A model generated the notes under the pieces. It saw nothing but the letters and a program-made list of their open reading frames with translations, searched no databases and was not told the DNA's origin. From the UHGV virus genome UHGV-0298230: a stretch of 24,011 nucleotides of DNA; one strand, given 5' to 3'. Positions within the stretch are counted from its first letter, which is position 1, and each line of letters starts with the position of its first letter. This DNA is from a virus. Positions 1,954 through 11,144 of the stretch are shown here, one piece after another. The translations under genes were made by a program, and so were the position numbers.

Positions 1954-2873
1954 AGATATCTCTTGTAGTTCCTGTCTTCAATGAAGAAGAAGCAATACCA
2001 ATTTTTTATAAAACGGTACGTGAATTCGAAGAGTTGAAGCCATACGAAGTGGAAATTGTTTTCATAAATGACGGCAGCAAAGACGCTACGGAGTCAATTA
2101 TTAATGCTCTGGCTGTTTCAGATCCTCTAGTTGTTCCGCTGTCATTTACACGAAACTTTGGTAAAGAACCAGCATTATTCGCAGGGTTAGACCATGCAAC
2201 AGGCGATGCTGTTATTCCTATTGATGTTGACCTGCAAGACCCGATTGAGGTTATTCCTCATCTGATTGAAAAGTGGCAAGCAGGTGCCGATATGGTGCTT
2301 GCTAAACGATCTGACCGATCAACGGATGGCAGACTGAAGAGGAAAACCGCCGAGTGGTTCTATAAGCTACATAACAAAATTAGCAACCCGCAGATCGAGG
2401 AAAACGTTGGTGATTTCCGCTTGATGTCTCGCGAGGTGGTGGAAAACATTAAGCTCATGCCAGAGCGCAACCTGTTTATGAAGGGCGTGCTGAGCTGGGT
2501 TGGCGGACGCACCGATGTCGTTGAATATGCACGAGCAGAACGAGTCGCAGGCAGCACTAAATTTAACGGATGGAAACTGTGGAACCTTGCCCTTGAGGGG
2601 ATAACCAGTTTCTCAACATTCCCGCTGCGCATGTGGACTTATATCGGATTGTTCGTTGCTGGAATTGCTTTTCTTTATGGTGCATGGATGATTTTTGACA
2701 CGCTTGTATTCGGCAATGCTGTTCGTGGATATCCATCGTTATTGGTCTCCATTCTTTTCCTTGGAGGTATTCAACTTATCGGTATCGGTGTACTTGGTGA
2801 ATATATAGGAAGAATTTATGTGGAAGTAAAATGCAGACCACGATATATTTTAAAGAAAAAGGAACAATCATGA
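1950..2873 (+). CDS. gtrB: GtrB, bactoprenol glucosyltransferase (GT2 family, 307 aa)
   Basis: N-terminal GT2 motifs ([10 protein letters not shown]..., DGSKD, D-x-D region) and two C-terminal TM helices; classic position after gtrA. Confidence 0.92.
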
Positions 2874-4141
2874 ATAGCATAAACACAAACAGAATATTTT
2901 TGTTTTTGATTATATTTGTTATATGTTTCATCATATTCTGCATGCGTCGTCCTGATATTATTTCACACCCTCAACTATGGGCAGAGGATGGACGGGTATG
3001 GCTTGGTCAGGCTTATGCATTGGGCCCTCTGAAATCTATAATTTTAGTACAGGATGGTTACTATCAGACAATTTCAAAACTTGTTGCGACATTCTCCATG
3101 CTGTTCCCATTATATCTATCACCTTTTATTTTCACTGTTATTGCATTATCGATAAGATGCGTAATAATAACCTTCATACTATCTAATAGATTCAAAAGCG
3201 TTTCTATATATCCAAGAATATTAATTTCAATCTTCATTTTAACTATGCCACACCTTGAAGAGGTGCATGCCAACGTAACCAACACTCATTGGTATATGGC
3301 AATATGGCTATTCTTGGTGCTGGTAGCAGATAGAACTGATGGATTATATTGGAAAGCACACGACTTTTTGGTGATGGTTGTGGCTGGCCTAAGTGGGCCA
3401 TTCATTGTTTTTTTAGCTCCTGTTGCCTTACTAAGAATTACAAACGGAGATATTCTAAAAACTCCTATCAATGCAGTAAAAAATGCATTCAGAAACTTAA
3501 ACTTATTCTACATAACTTTCGCAATAGTGTGTTTAATTCAGATAGCCGCGATACTTCTCTCTTCTAAAGGCTCTCGACCGACCGCGCCACTTGGTGCAGG
3601 TGTAGGGATTTTGATGGATATACTATCCTCCAGAGTATTCCTTGGCTCATTTCTTAGTGAGAGCTTATCAAGAAAGGTGTGGGATCTGCATGCTTTAAAT
3701 TACTTTGTTTCTTTATGTGGCCTATCAATTAGTGCATACGTGCTATTAAAAGGGAACTGGAAAGAAAAAGCATTAGTGATTTTTCCTTATCTTATGTTGG
3801 GATTTGCCCTTGCCAGACCAGTCATTGCAAGAGACCAGCCTCAATGGCCTCTCTTACAAATAGGACCAGGACAAAGGTATTTTGTCATACCGGCCATATT
3901 TTGGGTGTCGATACTTCTAGCATTCACTAATATGCTTCATGGGCATGTAAAGAAATTAGCATTTTGCATAGTGGCTTGCTCAGTAATTATATCTGGAATT
4001 GTTAGCTTTAAAATTGAAAAAAGACCTAACAATGGATGGATACAAGAGGCATACAAATATGAGACAGCAGAGCCAGGGAGTCGCGTGAAAATGCACACAC
4101 TACCACACTCAGGATGGTATTTAGATATAATAAAAAAATAA
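2831..4141 (+). CDS. Serotype-specific O-antigen glucosyltransferase (GtrC-type polytopic membrane protein), 436 aa; alternative start at 2870 (423 aa)
   Basis: Highly hydrophobic multi-TM protein directly after gtrB; visibly AT-rich compared with flanking genes, as is typical of type-specific gtr genes. ATG at 2870 overlaps the gtrB stop (ATGA) and has AAGGAA 6 nt upstream, so it may be the true start. Confidence 0.8.
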
Positions 4142-4142
4142 G

Positions 4143-4170
4143 TTAAGGGCGGTATTCGCCCTTAATTTTA
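4143..4170. terminator. Bidirectional rho-independent terminator between the convergent gtrC and tailspike genes
   Basis: Perfect hairpin TTAAGGGCG-gtatt-CGCCCTTAA (4143-4165), flanked by an A-run upstream and TTTTA downstream; sits between stops at 4139-4141 (+) and 4168-4170 (-). Confidence 0.75.
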
Positions 4171-6060
4171 TCTAACTCTTGTTATCATAAAGTCAAAATC
4201 TGCATCAGCCAAGTTGCCAGAGTTATCAGTGGTCACGATCCTGATGGCTGTTGTGCTTGGCTTGCCTGCATATAGCACCTTAAACCCGTTAGTTTTAGTA
4301 CTTGCTACTACCTGAAAGTCATTTACTGTTGGTCCATATAAGAAAGCGCTATCAATTGAATATACCCCTGTGGATTGTTTTGCTATTGTTAAATAAGATG
4401 GTGCATACGCAACACCTGCCGACGTTACACTTCCAGAAATCACCGATGAAGTGCTTACCGTAGATATAGACTTGCTTATGTCCTCACTAAAATGACAGGT
4501 ATCCATTCCATTTAAAGTCATATAAGCACCTCCTGAGATAAATGGTCTCGAAGCGCTAGGTATGTATCCAAAAGCTGTTTGAGTAAAAAAATGACACCCA
4601 TTAAGGTTAACAATGACACGCCCACCACCAGTGCTTAACGCTCTAATCACATATGTACAATAACCGCCTGATGAATTCCCCCTTATAAATGTGCATGAAT
4701 TGATATTTACAATAAGAGGTGAAGATGTCATGTTATTAACCTGAATGTCTGATATTCCTTGATTTGCTTCAAAATAGCAATCAGATATATTTATCACAGA
4801 CATTGGTTCTTTAGCTCTTAGGTAAACACCTCCTGTACCAGTATCTCCCTGAGTTCCATTACCCTCAAAATTGCAGTTGTTTAGATTTATCCTTGTGCCT
4901 ATCTCTCCTTCAATTCCAAATTTTGAGTTACCACTAAAAACACCATTTATTTTTAGTGCGTTAACTGTGCTGTTTGTTCCTCCGTTGATGTACATACCGT
5001 AGTTATTATATTGAGAGTTAATTCTGTTAAATTCACTGGTAAGAACTCCTGTTATTACCAAGCCTGAATTATTTCTTACGAGATACACATCCTCAACTTT
5101 TAGGTATGCAGCATTGCTTAACCTTAATCCAACTCCAGAGTTACCAGTACCATAAACAGTGAAATTAGATAACTTCATACCGCTATGCACACCCTGCCCG
5201 CCCCCTTCTGAATTACCTATATACTCAAGGAAATCATTGCCATTGGTGTTAAATGCAGTATTCGCCATTGACTCGCCAGTAAAGTCAAACCTCTTACTTT
5301 TTCTTCCCATTACAGGAAAATTTGATCCAGAGTGGTTTACTGTAACTTTTGTGGTAGAATTGTATTGCCCATCCTTAATTTCTATACCTCCAGTACCAGT
5401 ATTAAGCATATTTTGAATAGCAGGTGAAACCTCTGTTCCAGATTTCACGCCAAACCATGAAGCCATTTTTGCGCCATTATATGAACGCTTCCAGCGACGG
5501 CCTACTGCATCAATTAATACTGTTCCATCATCATCTTCTGTCGTTGTATCATCTGAATCAAGGAAGAACCATCCTTCTCCTCCATCCTGATTATGTTCTC
5601 TTCCTACGCATTTTATTTGCGTTCCAGAAACGTTAGATGTCCTTATTTGTTCATAAGTCGCCCCAACAATATAAGATTCACCATCAACTGCTGCTAATTT
5701 GTTTATGAAAGCTGGCAATGCCTGATCGGGGTCATACTTCAGCACATTAGGAAAATAGAACTGCTGCGTACCATACGCATCATAAACAGCCATAGAATGG
5801 CCTTGCACGGTAACGAATTTGGCAATCTGTCCGTTATATACAGGGTAACCAGCCGCATTAATGATGATTGGTTGCGAAACAGGAACGTGAGAACCATCTT
5901 CGTTCTCTACATAAACCTGAATCTGGTTTTCAGGATTTACCGGGTCAGTGTCAATTTTACCGATATAAATTTTGCCATTGGCAACCGCTTTAAAAGAACG
6001 CGCCATAGTGAAGAGTTGCGAAGGCATACTCACTACAACATTGGCTGTAATGTCTGTCAT
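4168..6060 (-). CDS. Tailspike protein (630 aa): conserved P22-type N-terminal head-binding domain plus parallel beta-helix receptor-binding/O-antigen-cleaving domain
   Basis: N-terminal ~113 aa ([43 protein letters not shown]...KYDPDQ) closely resembles P22 gp9 head-binding domain; remainder has beta-helix-like repeats ([33 protein letters not shown]). Confidence 0.9.
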
Positions 6061-6135
6061 TTAATTTGCTCCAGATACAAGGAATCGCCGCAGCGTGGCT
6101 ACGGTTGGTATTTGTTGCATACCGAAACGGTACGA

Positions 6136-6164
6136 TTGTTGATTTGTACAGTAGGTTTTACGAT
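6136..6164 (+). promoter_or_regulatory. Candidate sigma70 promoter for the second mnt-like gene (-35 TTGTTG 6136-6141, 17-bp spacer, -10 TACGAT 6159-6164), adjacent to palindrome TACCGaaaCGGTA (6120-6132)
   Basis: Hexamer match and spacing only; weak. Confidence 0.3.
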
Positions 6165-6192
6165 GCCATTCCACCCATTTGGTGAGGCATTG

Positions 6193-6450
6193 ATGATGTA
6201 CAGCAAATACGATGAGGCGCAGTTCCACTTGAGGCTTACGCACGAGTTGCACGCCAAGATTAAGCAACGTGCAAAAATGAATAACAGGTCTATCAATTCC
6301 GAAATTGTGGCTACGATGGAAGAATCGCTCTCCAAACCATCACCTGTAAGCGGGTATCGTGATGAAGAAGAGAGGCTTGCCTCATTAATCTCGGAACGAG
6401 TAAAAGAAGTTGCGGCTGATATTCTTAGAAAAGAAAAAACCCGCGATTAA
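6193..6450 (+). CDS. mnt: Mnt-like ribbon-helix-helix repressor (Arc/Mnt family), 85 aa
   Basis: Sequence MMYSKYDEAQFHLRLTHELHAKIKQRAKMNNRSINSEIVATMEESLSKPSPVSGYRDEEERLA... closely parallels P22 Mnt as I recall it (…NGRSMNSE…SKPSPVTGYRNDAERLA…); SD GGTGAGG 6 nt upstream of the ATG at 6193. The long ORF 5797..6450 in the track is an artefactual N-terminal extension antisense to the tailspike. Confidence 0.8.
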   Translation: MMYSKYDEAQFHLRLTHELHAKIKQRAKMNNRSINSEIVATMEESLSKPSPVSGYRDEEERLASLISERVKEVAADILRKEKTRD

Positions 6451-6458
6451 GCGGGTTT
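6437..6458. terminator. Hairpin terminator AAACCCGC-gattaa-GCGGGTTT between the convergent mnt-like gene and the ant operon
   Basis: 8-bp GC-rich stem; on the minus strand it is followed by a T-run (TTTTTCTTTTC); the loop contains the mnt stop codon. Confidence 0.6.
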
Positions 6459-6464
6459 AATTGG

Positions 6465-6686
6465 TTAGTTATCAAAAAGTCCGTAAGTTTCTTCTTCTTC
6501 AGGTGTAAGGGGAAGAATCTCTACTCTATCTATAGATACCTTTTCAATGTACCCATGAGGTCTACTTAAAATTAAAGCTCTCTCATGCCACAGAACTCCA
6601 AGAATGTGATACCTTCCAGCATCTCCTTTTACCCTGGCTCTTCCTTTGATTCTTGGCGGCATAATGCCATATCTTTTCTTTGCCAT
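6465..6686 (-). CDS. Hypothetical small protein (73 aa), basic N-terminus and acidic C-terminus
   Basis: Start ATG overlaps the stop of the upstream gene (TAATG), indicating translational coupling; MAKKRYGIMPPRIKGRARVKGD...LTPEEEETYGLFDN; no family recognised. Confidence 0.55.
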   Translation of the reverse strand: MAKKRYGIMPPRIKGRARVKGDAGRYHILGVLWHERALILSRPHGYIEKVSIDRVEILPLTPEEEETYGLFDN

Positions 6687-7414
6687 TATGCAACATTGCT
6701 CCCATGAATCAGGTGTTGTAGTGCTTTAACACCCTCCGCATTGTAGCGGAATGCTTCCACCTGTTTGCTTGAATGCGCAGATTTATCCAAGAAGAACTTC
6801 CCGTACTGCTCAGTTTTGAGGTTGTTTGCGTTAGCAATGCGACCAATCTTGTTGGCCGTTACTCCAAGCTGCTCTGCAACCTCCCCTGCTGAGTAGTAAT
6901 GCTCTTCTATTGCCGGAAGAGGTATTGCATTAAAACCAACGAGCGGGTTGATTATACTTGCTGCCGCTGTCTGCTTTGCCTCCGGCGCAAGATTTGGCAT
7001 CAGATCGAACAGATTGGTAACAGCTTCAACCGTCATTTTCAATGTTCGCGCTTGACGATACTCAACAAGTCCACTCGCTGATTTACCGCTTTTAATGTGC
7101 GCTTCTTGCATACTTTCAAGTTGGTCTACCAGTGAGCGGCGAACGGCTTTTGACTCGCGAGCGGCAACTCGCAATGCTTGCTTGATTGACATCTCAATGA
7201 TAACCATCGAAGTTTTGTTCGCTTTTTGCACTACACTTTTTGTGTAGTGCTCTCCATCCAATTCATCTTCAATTTTCTCGATGAATTTGTTATTACGAAC
7301 CTCCGGCTCACCGCACTGTCTACGAGCCTGATTTACCATCTCAAGCAGGCGCTGGCTGTCAATGGTTTTATCCGTGACAACGGATCCGATGTTTGCTACA
7401 TTCTTAAAAGTCAT
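6686..7414 (-). CDS. Antirepressor-type regulatory protein, possibly Rha/ORF6N-like N-terminal region and KilA-C/ANT-like C-terminal region (243 aa from ATG at 7414)
   Basis: AAGGAA 6 nt upstream of the ATG at 7414; C-terminal ...YYSAGEVAEQLGVTANKIGRIANANNLKTEQYGKF resembles antirepressor KilA-C-type motifs; the ORF track start at 7501 is a TTG directly after the upstream stop. Confidence 0.65.
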   Translation of the reverse strand: MTFKNVANIGSVVTDKTIDSQRLLEMVNQARRQCGEPEVRNNKFIEKIEDELDGEHYTKSVVQKANKTSMVIIEMSIKQALRVAARESKAVRRSLVDQLESMQEAHIKSGKSASGLVEYRQARTLKMTVEAVTNLFDLMPNLAPEAKQTAAASIINPLVGFNAIPLPAIEEHYYSAGEVAEQLGVTANKIGRIANANNLKTEQYGKFFLDKSAHSSKQVEAFRYNAEGVKALQHLIHGSNVA

Positions 7415-7482
7415 TAGGCATTCCTTATGTGGTAGTAAGGGTGTGACATAGGCCGCCAGCAGCACACTGGCGGTTTTCTTTT
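7409..7482 (+). ncRNA. Candidate sar-like antisense RNA complementary to the start codon and SD of the 6686..7414 gene
   Basis: Plus-strand terminator CCGCCAG-cagcaca-CTGGCGG followed by TTTTCTTTT (7453-7482) lies in the intergenic gap of a minus-strand operon; candidate promoter -35 GTGACA (7374-7379), -10 TACATT (7397-7402); the transcript would contain UUCCUU, anti-SD to AAGGAA. Confidence 0.4.
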
Positions 7483-7501
7483 GCGCCGTCCTGTGCACCA
7501 A

Positions 7502-8140
7502 TCAATGAATCCATTCCTCGCCGCGAAGTTTTGCCAGCATTGGCTGAGCGTTCTTTACGACAAAATTGTTGGTATCAAGATTCTTCATTTCACGAAGAAG
7601 CGATTTCTTGGTTTCTTCTGACATGTAGCGAGTCTCATATGCAATATCGTAAATCCTTCCAGAAAGCTCAGAACCAATTTGCTTCATTCCTGGGTAGATG
7701 TGTTTGCACATTTGTTGACTCTTCTCCATCCACAATTGTAAGTAGCAGAGATTAACCAGCTCTTCGTCAGTAAACTGTTTTGCAATCGGTGAGCATTCTG
7801 CCTGCCGATCCAAAATATCCAGCACCCAGCGGCGGAACTCTTTGGCCTTGGGCGTAGAAGCAAACATCGCCACCAAGTGAGCGCCTCGGAGCGAGTAAAC
7901 TCTGACCGATTTGTTACGTAAGCTATTGTTTATCCCGTTGACCTTCATATTGAGGGTCAATGACATTGAGTCGGAAAATTCGTCAGCATTACGGGCATAA
8001 ATTTGGCTGATGGCATCAGTTTTTTTATAGCCGAGAGCCTTAGCTAGTTCGGCGGAGGTGAACCAGATAGACCCGCCCTCTGTTACAGGGTTAAAAGTGA
8101 ATCCTTGGAAGTTATAATCTGATTTTGCTACAATATTCAT
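7502..8140 (-). CDS. Antirepressor-type protein with Bro-N/AntA-like N-terminal domain (212 aa from ATG at 8140)
   Basis: AAGGAA 6 nt upstream of the ATG at 8140; N-terminal region (FNPVTEGGSIWFTSAELAKALGYKK...VRVYSLRGAHLVAMFASTPKAKEFRRWVLDIL) matches the Bro-N/AntA pattern; the track's longer ORF start at 8224 overlaps the arc-like gene and lacks an SD. Confidence 0.7.
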   Translation of the reverse strand: MNIVAKSDYNFQGFTFNPVTEGGSIWFTSAELAKALGYKKTDAISQIYARNADEFSDSMSLTLNMKVNGINNSLRNKSVRVYSLRGAHLVAMFASTPKAKEFRRWVLDILDRQAECSPIAKQFTDEELVNLCYLQLWMEKSQQMCKHIYPGMKQIGSELSGRIYDIAYETRYMSEETKKSLLREMKNLDTNNFVVKNAQPMLAKLRGEEWIH

Positions 8141-8215
8141 GTTAGTTTCCTTGGGTACGGTTACTGACATAGAGGCCCGGTTTGTGTTCGCGCACTTCCG
8201 GGCTTCACTATTTTT
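8141..8215 (+). ncRNA. Candidate sar-like antisense RNA covering the SD and start of the Bro-N antirepressor gene
   Basis: Plus-strand candidate promoters (-35 TTGGAA 8105-8110 / -10 TACAAT 8129-8134, or -10 TATAAT 8113-8118) inside the 5' end of the minus-strand gene; imperfect stem-loop 8173-8205 followed by TATTTTT (8209-8215) in the arc-ant gap; arrangement matches P22 sar RNA. Confidence 0.4.
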
Positions 8216-8390
8216 ACTGGGCATTAGCTCTTTCCTCTCTCAGGCTTTTAGCCAGTCGCTGCACAATCGCAGAGTTGATAGAAATTCCATCCATTTCAGC
8301 TACGCGTCTGATCTCCTCCTTCATTCGCGCTGGCAAACGAAGCTGGAAACTCTGACTTTTACGACCACTGTAAAGAACATCGCTCATCAT
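8214..8390 (-). CDS. arc: Arc-like ribbon-helix-helix repressor (58 aa from ATG at 8390; track ORF extends to 8405)
   Basis: ...SQSFQLRLPARMKEEIRRVAEMDGISINSAIVQRLAKSL... has the Arc/Mnt RHH signature; GGAG 6 nt upstream of the ATG at 8390; divergent from the mnt-like gene across an operator-rich region, as in P22 immI. Confidence 0.75.
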   Translation of the reverse strand: MMSDVLYSGRKSQSFQLRLPARMKEEIRRVAEMDGISINSAIVQRLAKSLREERANAQ

Positions 8391-8401
8391 CAATATCTCC
8401 G

Positions 8402-8475
8402 TCATAATGACATCACCGTGATGTCATGACACCATTATGATGCCATTGCTCATAATGTCAATATGATGCTACTGT
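8402..8475. promoter_or_regulatory. Divergent promoter/operator region: 21-bp perfect palindrome ATGACATCA-ccg-TGATGTCAT (8407-8427), repeated TCATAAT/ATTATGA half-sites, and a strong minus-strand promoter (-35 TTGACA at 8461..8456, 16-bp spacer, -10 CATAAT at 8439..8434)
   Basis: Direct reading; the palindrome lies at about +1 of the minus-strand promoter, consistent with an operator for an RHH repressor. Confidence 0.55.
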
Positions 8476-8510
8476 GTTTTTTATTGCTCATATGCCTTGC
8501 GAATAAGAAA

Positions 8511-8762
8511 ATGTCAGAAAAAGACGAATCAAATTTCATAGAAAGATTTACGGTTAGAATGCCTGAAGGCATGCGTAGTGCTATTGCGGAAAGGGCTAAA
8601 CGAAACGGTCGATCTATGAACTCAGAGATAGTTCAAATTCTTGAGGATGCGTTATCATCTGACGTCTCATCAGTAGACAAATCATTAGATCTTAAACAAA
8701 TAAAATCTTTACTTGATAAAATTTCCAACGAGTTACTGGATAGAATCCCAAAAGACACATAA
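8511..8762 (+). CDS. mnt: Mnt-like ribbon-helix-helix repressor (83 aa from ATG at 8511)
   Basis: MSEKDESNFIERFTVRMPEGMRSAIAERAKRNGRSMNSEIVQILEDAL... has the Arc/Mnt signature (NGRSMNSE); same length as P22 Mnt; the track start at 8463 lies inside the operator region. Confidence 0.75.
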   Translation: MSEKDESNFIERFTVRMPEGMRSAIAERAKRNGRSMNSEIVQILEDALSSDVSSVDKSLDLKQIKSLLDKISNELLDRIPKDT

Positions 8763-8808
8763 CAAAACATTATCATCCGGTGTTCTGCTCAAAACTAAGG
8801 AGGTTGGT

Positions 8809-9129
8809 GTGTATATATCGCTATCTACCATTTTTTTCATCTGCTTAGCTATTTGGCTTTTAAGAATATGGCAGGATTGCTCTGTCAGCCATGCTGCTGC
8901 GGTGAGAAATAAAAACGCCCTCATAAAAGAAGCTGAAAACGTTGTCTTATCAATGGATCACCTTTCATGGACCGAGATGACTACAGGGCAACAAGAGGTT
9001 TATGAGTGTGCGATTGAGCGGTTAAGGCTGCTTAAATCGTACAAAAAGAACCACGCACCCGACTCATTCCCATTCCTGAAAGAATGGCCGAGATGGTATG
9101 ACCCGAAAAAAGCAACCATCAACCGCTAA
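8809..9129 (+). CDS. Hypothetical small membrane-anchored or secreted protein (~106 aa) at the position occupied by sieA in P22
   Basis: Strong SD AGGAGG (8798-8803) 5 nt upstream of in-frame GTG at 8809; N-terminal hydrophobic segment (YISLSTIFFICLAIWLLRIW) then a soluble domain; no family recognised. Confidence 0.55.
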   Translation: MYISLSTIFFICLAIWLLRIWQDCSVSHAAAVRNKNALIKEAENVVLSMDHLSWTEMTTGQQEVYECAIERLRLLKSYKKNHAPDSFPFLKEWPRWYDPKKATINR

Positions 9130-9137
9130 CCAACTTT

Positions 9138-11144
9138 TTACTGCTGGGCTTTCTCACTTGAAGCCTGAATTAGAGGTGTAAGAGTTTCAGATACCCGTCT
9201 GATCGCTCTATCATAAGCAGTACTTCCTTTTGGTGTGTTTGCTAACTTTAGTAATGCGTTCCTCATCGCGCGTGACTCATAGCCCCTGCCAGCCATACCG
9301 ATACCAGCTCCAACTGCCGCAACTTTTGCAAACATTGGATTTGTAACAGATGCAAGAGCTGTTATCAGCGCTGCTGGACCAGCTACCATTTGCCCTGTTA
9401 GTGGGCTTGCGGCAGCAGTAGCTGCCTGTCTAGTGGAATCAAGATATTTCATTATCCCATCAAGCTGTTTCCCATGCTCTCCTCTGAAGAACGTCTCAGC
9501 CTGCTTCCGATTCCTTTTCATTTCATTAATAAACTTCTCAACGCTAAGCTTTCCTGAATCGCTTGTCGCCTTATCCATTGCACGCTGAACAAGTGCTGCT
9601 CTAGCATTTTGACGCCCACTATCATCAAGCAATCGATAAAGTTGCGCCCTTTCCGCTGGGCTTTGGCTGAATACTAGTTTAGTGACATCTTCTGGCGTTG
9701 TTTTACCACTCTGAATAGCTTTTTGGACACGTGTATTGCTCATCATGTCGTTGAACTTTGCCCAAGAACGATCAATACGCGACATGTTTTGCGCTTCCTT
9801 CGCACCTAGTTTTGCGCCAACCGCTTTTTTCATGTCTGTTGTGTATGCGTTATAAACAGACTGCGCAGCTTTCTCCAGCGTATCTCTATCGACCTCGTCA
9901 GGTGCTGCCATAAAGCGCTTACGTAAGTTTGTACGGTTTTCTCTAGCTAATTGCAGGTTATTTGGACCGCTGGTGATGTCATTTCTAAACTGTTGAAGGA
10001 CAGAAACAGCTGAGCGGTCTTGCGATACTCCTGGGCGAGTTAACTTGGAAATCTGCTCATCAATTGCTTTCACTGTTCCAGTGATGTCAACAGGAGTATC
10101 CCCCATCAAACTGATGATCCTGTCGTACCGCTTGCCAGCAGCCTGAATAAATTGCTGCTGACCACGAGTAGCTGATTGGTAAAGTTGTGCGTCAGATATT
10201 CCACCAACATTATCGCTAAATGTTCTAACTAAATCTTCCCTGGCCTTTTGCTGTGCATTTCTTATCCCACCTGTTCCGGCTATTGGGATTCGCTCAGCCA
10301 TAGCTCGTGCTTGCTTACCAATATTTGTTCCCGGTTCCACAAGATCTGTTGTCATCAGTGGCAAGTTGTTCTGCTTGGCAAAGTCAATCTGAGCTTGTTT
10401 TTCAGGAGCAATCTTACCCATAGCAGAACGAGACACTGCGCTTGCGGTGTTTTCTACACCCTTCAGTACCCCACCAAGACCAGCAGAAATTGCAGTTTGA
10501 ACTGGATTAACATTCTCACCGCCAGCGATCTTTGTGGCACCCTGTAAAGCTAAATCAGTAGCGCCTGATTTTAGTGTTGCACCTACAACAGACGCAGCTC
10601 TACCTGCTGGAGTGAATGCAAGAGCATTTGCCAAGAATGACGTTATATCCTGCGGTGACAAACCAGGCTTGTTAAGTGCATATTCCCCTGAAGGAAGGGT
10701 GACTATGGAATTTCCCTTCTCATCCTTCCGGATTTTCCCGCCAATACTTTGCAGTATTTTCTCCTGTGAAGCGTCGGAACCAAATAGCTGCCCCAATCCA
10801 GCACGCAGCGCATCAGTGCTTAAGCTATTAAGCTCTGGAGCAGACCCAACATTTTGCAGTCTCTCCATTTCTGGTGTCATTCGGCTTTCACCGGTAACGG
10901 CATCGCGCATTGCAGCACCTAAAACAGCCCCTTGCTCAGCAGATCGATCTAGTCCTTCCTTCTGCTGAGTGGCAAGCTGTGCATATCCTGATGCAAGTGA
11001 GTTGTCTGCTGGCGATTGCTGAACACCTTGTTGTGTTGGTGCTGACTGACCAGCAAAATACTCATCAATGGCGGTGCCAATATCTTCGGTGCTCGTACCA
11101 TCAGGAAAGGTAAATGTCTTACCGTTTGCAGTTACTTTCATCAT
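9138..11144 (-). CDS. Ejection (internal virion) protein, P22 gp16-like (668 aa)
   Basis: Position and order after gp7/gp20 homologues; N-terminus [30 protein letters not shown]; start overlaps the upstream stop (ATGA). Confidence 0.85.

What the first reader, a model, noticed from the sequence alone, without database searches (positions are those of the whole stretch)
6465..6686. Translationally coupled 73-aa protein with basic N-terminus and acidic tail at the end of the ant operon
The start overlaps the upstream stop (TAATG), implying stoichiometric co-expression with the second antirepressor-type gene. The composition (Lys/Arg-rich N-terminus, EEEE-containing C-terminus) suggests a nucleic-acid-binding or protein-mimic function. 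No known family is recognised.
Basis: inference. Interest (0 to 1): 0.45.

Follow-up and report, generated by a model that had tools for sequence, protein, structure and literature searches.

The report
Small SH3-like cargo gene, ant operon
The 73-codon reading frame is a real, conserved gene at the end of a P22-like prophage's antirepressor operon. It encodes a small SH3-like barrel protein from an uncharacterised family carried by phages and plasmids, and what it binds is still unknown.

Summary
ORF 6465-6686 (-) starts inside the stop of the upstream gene (TAATG) and has a basic N-terminus and an acidic tail. A strong intrinsic terminator follows it directly.

It is a real gene. pN/pS is 0.08 in its own frame, and AlphaFold gives pLDDT 90. 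The predicted fold is a five-stranded SH3/Tudor/KOW-like barrel.

"No known family" is only partly right. The protein is a full-length member of phrog_4977 (function unknown). Profile searches found about 136 clusters in Escherichia, Salmonella, Klebsiella, Serratia, Citrobacter, Pseudomonas, Stutzerimonas and Burkholderia. All share the basic arm (Y-G-x-M-P), the barrel and the acidic tail.

The window is a Sf6/HK620-type P22-like prophage. The gene is the last cistron of the Arc/Mnt-type "ant moron" operon: promoter, arc, ant, a second antirepressor, then ORF73.

It is optional. Sibling prophages lack it as a clean indel of about 210 bp. In other genera the only gene shared between contexts is the homologue itself.

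My best reading is a self-contained binding protein that uses the antirepressor operon for its expression, not a subunit of the antirepressor. Its target is unknown. This is an ordinary phage accessory gene of modest interest.

The parts
6465..6686 (-). ORF73. A 73-aa protein of family phrog_4977: basic N-terminal arm (residues 1-16), predicted five-stranded SH3-like barrel (strands 16-19, 26-32, 37-41, 47-51, 55-58), and an acidic C-terminal helix and tail (59-73).
6684..6688 (-). TAATG stop/start overlap between the upstream antirepressor-type gene and ORF73. A GGGAG lies upstream, with about 12 nt between its last base and the ATG, which is a long spacing for a Shine-Dalgarno site.
   Evidence: the junction is identical in 43/43 close loci
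6428..6458 (-). Intrinsic terminator (AAACCCGC-UUAAUC-GCGGGUUU followed by UUUUUCUUUU) that ends the ant operon 7 nt after the ORF73 stop. It is shared back-to-back with the convergent mnt-like gene.
   Evidence: -14.3 kcal/mol, z = -4.3
6686..7414 (-). Second antirepressor-type gene: phrog_1726, 242 aa from the PGAP start (the longest ORF reaches 7501). Its last ~300 nt (to about 6980) form one ~98%-identical block with ORF73.
   Evidence: A Serratia ORF6N antirepressor hits the same PHROG through its N-terminal part.
7502..8140 (-). Ant-type antirepressor with Bro-N and P22AR_C domains (the longest ORF reaches 8224).
8214..8405 (-). arc-like ribbon-helix-helix repressor gene, the first cistron of the operon.
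   Evidence: (PF03869, E = 1e-11)
8434..8461 (-). P_ant-like sigma-70 promoter, TTGACA-16-CATAAT (11/12 matches).
6196..6450 (+). Convergent mnt-like Arc-family repressor gene between ORF73 and the tailspike gene. The coordinates are mapped from the PGAP annotation of E. coli KSC207.

Best explanation
Shown. ORF73 is a real protein-coding gene and the last cistron of the Arc/Mnt-type P_ant operon in the 'ant moron' of a Sf6/HK620-type P22-like prophage. It encodes a small protein with no recognisable catalytic domain. The protein has a conserved basic N-terminal arm (Y-G-x-M-P), a predicted SH3/Tudor/KOW-like five-stranded barrel and an acidic tail. It belongs to an uncharacterised family (phrog_4977) carried by phages, prophages, plasmids and genomic islands of Gamma- and Betaproteobacteria. 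Here it is an optional add-on, fused by a TAATG overlap to the 3' end of an antirepressor gene.

Inferred. The gene uses the antirepressor operon only as an expression platform. By analogy with P22 (PMC12111858), that means a burst right after DNA entry, before Arc shuts the promoter, and again from late read-through transcription. Because no partner gene recurs across contexts, the protein most likely acts alone. It would bind, stoichiometrically, a macromolecule common to many proteobacterial hosts or their resident elements: either nucleic acid or a protein that handles nucleic acid. It would not be a subunit or regulator of the neighbouring antirepressor. The target itself is not identified.
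For: Coding and fold.
- pN/pS is 0.08 in frame only.
- Homologues exist in other genera.
- The AlphaFold model has pLDDT 90 and pTM 0.72, with five strands and a C-terminal helix.

Operon.
- Promoter, arc, ant, phrog_1726 gene, ORF73 and terminator lie on one strand.
- The ant moron is described as a high-flux accessory region in PMC2629481.
- P_ant and late-promoter transcription of immI are described in PMC12111858.

Optional cargo.
- A clean indel of about 210 bp separates this prophage from siblings, and the upstream gene keeps its C-terminus there.
- The ORF is in 54 of 5426 complete E. coli genomes. The wider 1161-bp query that includes the upstream gene matches in 141.

Autonomy.
- An all-against-all BLASTP of neighbours over 11 contexts found only the ORF73-family gene shared between unrelated contexts.
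- The contexts are: Klebsiella prophages after the ejection-protein genes with no antirepressor; a Salmonella plasmid-like contig (resolvase, Tn3-type transposase, PilO); Burkholderia and Pseudomonas arrays of small genes; Stutzerimonas contigs and a Pseudomonas plasmid beside SprT-like and orphan methyltransferase genes.

Family-wide architecture is shown.
Against: - In every close copy (43/43) the gene is welded to the same upstream gene by TAATG. It also shares a ~98%-identical block with that gene's C-terminal ~100 codons, while the flanks fall to 70-80%. This fits a functional pair at least within Escherichia.
- A Serratia homologue also lies two genes from an ORF6N-type antirepressor that hits the same PHROG.
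- No binding target, nucleic-acid affinity or phenotype was tested.
- Expression timing is taken from P22 and was not measured for this phage.
Confidence: 0.5

Rival explanations
1. ORF73 is a dedicated partner of the upstream ORF6N-type antirepressor: a chaperone, specificity factor or inhibitor. It would be made in a fixed ratio through translational coupling.
For: - The TAATG junction is invariant in 43/43 loci.
- ORF73 and the C-terminal ~100 codons of the upstream gene form one ~98%-identical block with sharp boundaries.
- Nearly every E. coli copy sits next to that gene: 52 genomes cover at least 80% of the joint region and 54 carry the ORF.
- In phage JEP4 the pair is kept although the regulator upstream differs.
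- A Serratia homologue lies near an antirepressor of a related PHROG.
Against: - The upstream gene is intact, with the same C-terminal residues, in prophages that lack ORF73. About 60% of E. coli genomes matching that region do not have the ORF.
- Homologues in Klebsiella, Salmonella, Pseudomonas, Burkholderia and Stutzerimonas have no antirepressor neighbour, and no partner recurs.
Confidence: 0.17
2. ORF73 is an establishment or anti-defence protein. It would be made in the first minutes after DNA entry and would neutralise a host immunity component or a resident element's factor.
For: - It sits in an operon that, in P22, fires before repression is set up (PMC12111858).
- Homologues on Stutzerimonas contigs and a Pseudomonas plasmid lie beside an SprT-like gene and divergent orphan C5 and N6 methyltransferase genes. 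Orphan methyltransferases are enriched in anti-defence leading regions of plasmids (PMC11541004).
- Other homologues sit next to TIR, CBASS, RES and toxin-antitoxin genes within mobile DNA.
- It is small, has no recognisable catalytic domain and is optional, like many anti-defence proteins.
Against: - The evidence is purely contextual.
- The Pseudomonas plasmid is typed non-mobilizable, and no oriT or leading region was mapped.
- In Klebsiella prophages the gene lies in line with late genes (ejection proteins, lysis, tailspike), not early ones.
- There is no similarity to any characterised anti-defence protein. PADLOC models defence genes rather than anti-defence genes, and it gave nothing.
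Confidence: 0.2
3. ORF73 has a late or virion-associated role, for example an injected or DNA-associated small basic/acidic protein.
For: In Escherichia, Klebsiella and Serratia prophages the gene occupies the same slot after the ejection or internal-virion protein genes. In Escherichia and Klebsiella that slot precedes the tailspike gene. In Klebsiella it is co-oriented with the late genes.
Against: Homologues also occur on a plasmid, on plasmid-like contigs and in non-phage small-gene arrays. Sibling phages with the same virion genes lack it. That slot is a known accessory hot spot (PMC2629481).
Confidence: 0.08
4. The ORF is a chance reading frame or a decaying remnant with no function.
For: Short ORFs are frequent in the window. 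A few database variants carry frameshifts in the A-rich 5' end.
Against: pN/pS is 0.08 in this frame only. The family is conserved across two proteobacterial classes. The fold prediction is confident. The initiator Met is conserved in 95% of members.
Confidence: 0.03

Closest known systems
PHROG family phrog_4977 (unknown function)
   Same: Full-length match, E = 1e-53, residues 1-73 against profile positions 1-73 of 73. 77 of 78 members of the wider family hit only this PHROG.
   Different: The family has no annotation, so membership gives a name but no mechanism.
Accessory genes of the P22-like 'ant moron' / immI region (Villafane et al. 2008, PMC2629481)
   Same: Located between the gene-16-type ejection protein gene and the tailspike gene. 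Present or absent between otherwise syntenic phages. No role in morphogenesis is evident.
   Different: It has no promoter of its own and is translationally fused to the antirepressor operon. None of the named P22 genes in this region is identified with it; that is taken from annotations and the paper, not from a sequence comparison.
SH3-like small barrels: Tudor (PHF19/PHF1), retroviral integrase C-terminal domain, NusG/Spt5 KOW, SH3
   Different: Sequence identity is 7-18% and no Pfam hit to KOW, Tudor or SH3 models. The conserved N-terminal Y-G-x-M-P arm and the acidic tail are specific to this family.
CarS of Myxococcus xanthus, an SH3-topology antirepressor that mimics operator DNA (recalled from my own knowledge; not retrieved here)
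   Same: A small SH3-like protein linked to antirepression. It is the only precedent I know for this fold acting against a repressor.

Membership tests
phrog_4977 | Significant full-length match to the family HMM | tested here: met
   E = 1e-53, 180 bits, residues 1-73 against profile 1-73. 77/78 relatives also match.
SH3-like barrel fold (Tudor/KOW/SH3/integrase C-terminal domain superfolds) | Five-stranded, strongly bent antiparallel barrel of about 50-60 residues | tested here: met
KOW / Tudor / SH3 sequence families | Match to the family's sequence profile (KOW motif, Tudor aromatic cage, SH3 ALYDY/WW motifs) | tested here: not met
   No Pfam hit at E <= 1 for the window protein or any of 78 relatives, apart from unrelated noise.
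P22 Ant / Bro-N / ORF6N / KilAC antirepressors | Presence of a Bro-N, ORF6N, P22AR_C or ANT domain | tested here: not met
   None was found in ORF73. The two upstream genes carry them (Bro-N plus P22AR_C; phrog_1726).
Moron (independently expressed insert in a phage operon) | Present or absent between related phages at the same site | tested here: met
   A clean indel of about 210 bp separates this prophage from those of E. coli VTB96929v and 1506.
Moron (independently expressed insert in a phage operon) | Own promoter and terminator | tested here: not met
   No promoter-like site lies between the upstream gene and the ORF on the minus strand, and the start overlaps the upstream stop. Only a terminator follows.
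CarS-type DNA-mimic antirepressor | Strongly acidic surface that mimics operator DNA and binds a repressor's recognition helix | tested here: not met
   Net charge is about +3, with a +2 barrel, and only the tail is acidic. Repressor binding cannot be tested with these tools.
Translationally coupled gene pair | Downstream translation depends on termination of the upstream cistron | not testable with these tools
   Only the TAATG overlap and a distant GGGAG (about 12 nt before the ATG) can be seen.

The most novel reading that the evidence does not exclude
phrog_4977 would be a previously unrecognised family of SH3-like 'entry-burst' proteins. Phages, plasmids and islands of Proteobacteria would make them immediately after DNA entry to disable a conserved host immunity or nucleic-acid-surveillance component. 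In this reading, E. coli P22-like phages captured the gene onto the antirepressor operon because that operon fires before repression is established.
Probability: 0.2. Interest if true: 0.6.

Novelty: new member of a known kind. Interest (0 to 1): 0.3.

Why it matters
The ant moron of P22-like phages is a known hot spot for accessory genes, and few of those genes have assigned functions. This analysis turns an anonymous ORF into a defined object. It is a selected gene with a confident SH3-like fold and a conserved N-terminal motif. Its family is spread over several kinds of mobile element, and it shows clean natural presence/absence variants. That makes it a simple target for deletion, pull-down and defence-panel experiments. 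If the target proves to be a host defence or nucleic-acid-handling factor, it would add a new small inhibitor family. If not, it remains one more phage accessory protein.

Tried and rejected
- Sequence families. Pfam, NCBIfam and PADLOC gave nothing for ORF73. A Pfam scan of all 78 relatives gave only scattered noise.
- PDB by sequence. A profile search found nothing below E = 0.5.
- Domain fusions. Longer family members carry only acidic or coiled-coil-like extensions with no Pfam domain. One nucleotidyltransferase 'fusion' (P0140) lacks the N-terminal arm and looks like a miscalled gene.
- Recurring partner gene. None was found by all-against-all BLASTP of neighbours.
- One genome per species (GTDB). 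No relative was confirmed.
- Phage and plasmid collections. Only phage JEP4 carries a close copy. Distant hits were few: phage NCTB, two Stenotrophomonas phages and seven Pseudomonas plasmids.
- Structured RNA. Rfam found none in 5900-9000.
- Coding on other frames or the opposite strand. Rejected by pN/pS.
- Frameshift extension of the upstream protein. Rejected because homologues stand alone with their own conserved Met.

Full report
**1. The observation**

The reading frame 6465-6686 on the minus strand encodes 73 residues: MAKKRYGIMPPRIKGRARVKGDAGRYHILGVLWHERALILSRPHGYIEKVSIDRVEILPLTPEEEETYGLFDN. The upstream ORF ends at 6686 with its stop included. Its TAA (6688-6686) and the ATG of the small ORF (6686-6684) therefore share one base, giving TAATG. 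A GGGAG lies upstream of the ATG, about 12 nt away, which is a long spacing for a ribosome-binding site. Residues 1-16 carry net charge +6 and the tail -5.

**2. Gene or chance ORF?**

Short ORFs are common in this window: 42 of at least 40 aa overlap 3000-10000. Length alone therefore proves nothing. Three independent lines show that this one is real.

- Polymorphism. 42 IMG/VR viral contigs carry the ORF at 96-100% protein identity. Their 16 distinct haplotypes have 22 segregating sites, 14 of them at third codon positions. pS is 0.087 and pN is 0.0072, so pN/pS is 0.08 in this frame. The other five frames give 0.22-3.7.
- Distant homologues. An exhaustive phmmer scan of 1.84 billion representative proteins found relatives at 35-47% identity. 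Profile searches raised this to 102 and then 136 clusters. The named members come from Escherichia, Salmonella, Klebsiella, Serratia, Citrobacter, Cedecea, Pseudomonas, Stutzerimonas, Burkholderia and Paraburkholderia.
- Fold prediction. With a 78-sequence family alignment, AlphaFold2 gives mean pLDDT 90 and pTM 0.72.

PGAP already annotates the gene as WP_001085631.1, hypothetical protein.

**3. Surroundings**

The window is a mosaic Sf6/HK620-type P22-like (Lederbergvirus) prophage or phage. No complete E. coli genome or phage record covers it fully. The best matches are 78% coverage in E. coli KSC207 and 65% in phage N7.

The small gene lies in the region between the gene-16-type ejection protein gene (9138-11144, minus) and the tailspike gene (4168-6060, minus; head-binding domain E = 7e-67). 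Villafane et al. called this region the "ant moron". [quoted passage not shown]

On the minus strand the order is as follows.

- A sigma-70-like promoter, TTGACA-16-CATAAT, at 8461-8434.
- An Arc-family gene at 8214-8405 (PF03869).
- An Ant-type antirepressor with Bro-N and P22AR_C domains at 7502-8140.
- A second antirepressor-type gene at 6686-7414 (phrog_1726, E = 8e-101).
- ORF73.
- A terminator hairpin with a U-run at 6458-6428 (-14.3 kcal/mol, z = -4.3).

Arc/Mnt-family genes on the plus strand flank the operon at 6196-6450 and 8463-8762. "At the end of the ant operon" is therefore correct.

In P22, P_ant is repressed by Arc during the lytic cycle, and the region is also transcribed from the late promoter (PMC12111858). 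That P_ant fires immediately on infection, and that Mnt keeps it off in lysogens, is established P22 biology that I recall from my own knowledge. Applying this timing to the present phage is inference.

**4. What the protein looks like**

The model has an N-terminal arm without regular secondary structure but modelled with confidence. Block pLDDT is 81 for residues 1-10 and 92 for 11-20. Five strands follow (16-19, 26-32, 37-41, 47-51, 55-58), then a short helix at 62-68 in the acidic tail.

The structure searches gave these results.

| Library | Best matches |
|---|---|
| PDB, Foldseek | The same classes, E around 0.05-0.2 |
| BFVD (viral), Foldseek | Nothing better than E = 0.005; all top hits uncharacterised |

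The fold is thus a generic SH3-like small barrel. This is a binding scaffold, and no specific relative could be identified.

Across 78 family members P10 and W33 are invariant. Y6, G7, M9, A17, G21, G30, R42 and I52 are at least 96% conserved, and position 20 is always K or R. The N-arm is net positive in 99% of members and the tail net negative in 94%. The E. coli clade sits on a long branch at 31-46% identity to all others. It has replaced two otherwise common aromatic residues, W29 with L and W49 with K.

**5. Relation to the upstream gene**

Evidence for a link:

- All 43 close copies have the identical TAATG junction and the same upstream gene family.
- A sliding-window comparison shows a ~98%-identical block running from about 6980 to 6465. 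This covers the last ~100 codons of the upstream gene plus ORF73. Identity falls to 72-81% in parts of the upstream gene's 5' half and to 67-77% past the stop.
- Phage JEP4 keeps the pair although its regulator upstream differs.
- 54 complete E. coli genomes carry the ORF, and 52 cover at least 80% of the joint region.

Evidence against an obligate link:

- The prophages of E. coli VTB96929v and 1506 have the upstream gene ending in the same residues (…HGSNVA). The same terminator follows directly. The ORF is missing as a clean indel of about 210 bp.
- The region matches in 141 E. coli genomes, so most carriers of the upstream gene lack the ORF.

**6. Contexts of distant homologues**

| Host | Context |
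|---|---|
| Klebsiella prophages | After three large ejection-type genes (one with an SLT domain) and a small ORF; before the lysis cassette and tailspike; no antirepressor |
| Serratia prophage | After similar large genes; followed by an Ash-family gene and an ORF6N antirepressor (phrog_4792, which also hits phrog_1726) |
| Salmonella plasmid-like contigs | Among TIR/SLATT genes, RelB/ParE, Hha, ProQ and PilO |
| Burkholderia | In an array of small genes with GmrSD_N and Fic proteins |
| Stutzerimonas contigs and a Pseudomonas plasmid | After an SprT-like gene, divergent from C5 methyltransferase, PAPS-reductase-family and N6 methyltransferase genes |
| Pseudomonas chromosomes | Long arrays of small genes, one next to a CBASS/RES island |

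An all-against-all BLASTP of all neighbours within about 3.5 kb over 11 contexts found that, between unrelated contexts, only the ORF73-family gene itself recurs. Longer family members carry only acidic or coiled-coil-like extensions without any Pfam domain. The family therefore behaves as a self-contained, single-gene cargo of mobile elements.

**7. Mechanism**

Shown: a selected gene; the last cistron of a P_ant-type operon; a start that overlaps the upstream stop; a predicted SH3-like barrel with a conserved basic arm and an acidic tail; optional presence; an autonomous family.

Inferred: the protein has no recognisable catalytic domain and acts by binding. Its expression follows the antirepressor operon. 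Because no partner gene travels with it across genera, its target is most likely something present in many proteobacterial hosts or their resident elements.

I put about 0.5 on this general statement. Within it, binding to nucleic acid (basic arm plus barrel, as in integrase C-terminal domains and KOW domains) and binding to a protein cannot be separated with the present data. Confidence in the rival readings is as follows.

- Dedicated partner of the upstream antirepressor, 0.17. The evidence for and against is given in section 5.
- Establishment or anti-defence protein, 0.20. This rests on the early-burst operon and on neighbours such as orphan methyltransferases, which are enriched in plasmid leading regions (PMC11541004). 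It is weakened because no leading region was mapped and the Klebsiella copies lie among late genes.
- Late or virion-associated role, 0.08.
- No function, 0.03.

**8. Comparison with known systems and novelty**

The protein is a member of phrog_4977, which has no annotation. At fold level it is an SH3-like barrel, but it fails the sequence definitions of KOW, Tudor and SH3 families. It is not an Ant, Bro-N or ORF6N protein. It meets the presence/absence criterion of a moron but not the own-promoter criterion.

The only precedent I know for an SH3-topology protein acting in antirepression is CarS of Myxococcus. I recall this from memory and did not retrieve it. ORF73 is not acidic overall, and no CarS structure appeared among the best structural matches listed, so that remains only a lead.

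Overall this is a new, better-defined member of a known kind: small accessory proteins of phage moron regions. Interest is modest at 0.3. The most novel reading not excluded is a new family of entry-burst inhibitors, with probability about 0.2.

Noticed in passing
window 6465-6980: ORF73 plus the last ~100 codons of the upstream antirepressor-type gene form a ~98%-identical block across 43 loci. The flanks drop to 67-81%. This looks like a recently spread mosaic module whose left boundary lies inside a gene.
   Followed up: partly
window 6196-6450 (+) and 8463-8762 (+): Two Arc/Mnt-family repressor genes flank the ant operon. One sits at the usual mnt position and a second lies between ORF73 and the tailspike gene. 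In E. coli KSC207, PGAP marks the gene at the first position as an incomplete pseudogene.
   Followed up: no
window 6640-6686 (5' end of ORF73); proteins P0003, P0004, P0006: A few database variants replace the basic N-terminal arm with a frame-shifted sequence and rejoin the frame near residue 19-20. The A-rich 5' end (AAAGAAAAGA) may be prone to this. These are singleton or two-member clusters, so they may be sequencing errors.
   Followed up: no
window 2831-4141 (+): A 436-aa ORF just beyond the tailspike gene. By eye it is rich in hydrophobic stretches and looks like a multi-pass membrane protein. It has no Pfam hit at E <= 0.001. It could be a surface- or O-antigen-modifying accessory gene, but no topology or function was tested.
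   Followed up: partly
L060 1-6700 and L062 1-6400 (Stutzerimonas contig / Pseudomonas plasmid pNY5530-NR1): A conserved block holds C5 methyltransferase, PAPS-reductase-family and N6 methyltransferase genes. It is divergent from an SprT-like gene, a small ORF, the ORF73 homologue (98 aa) and two hypothetical genes. It resembles an anti-restriction or establishment module.
   Followed up: partly
L052-L054 and L064-L065 (Klebsiella), L051 (Serratia): Homologues occupy the same slot after the ejection-protein genes in podophage-like prophages of other genera. In Klebsiella the slot precedes the lysis genes and tailspike. In Serratia an Ash-family gene, an antirepressor and a 536-aa ORF that looks like a large terminase subunit by eye follow. 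The accessory hot spot seems to be conserved beyond P22-like phages of E. coli and Salmonella.
   Followed up: partly
NZ_CP019558.1 (E. coli KSC207): The record holds two places that match ORF73 and its upstream region. This suggests two related prophages, or a duplicated module, in one genome.
   Followed up: no
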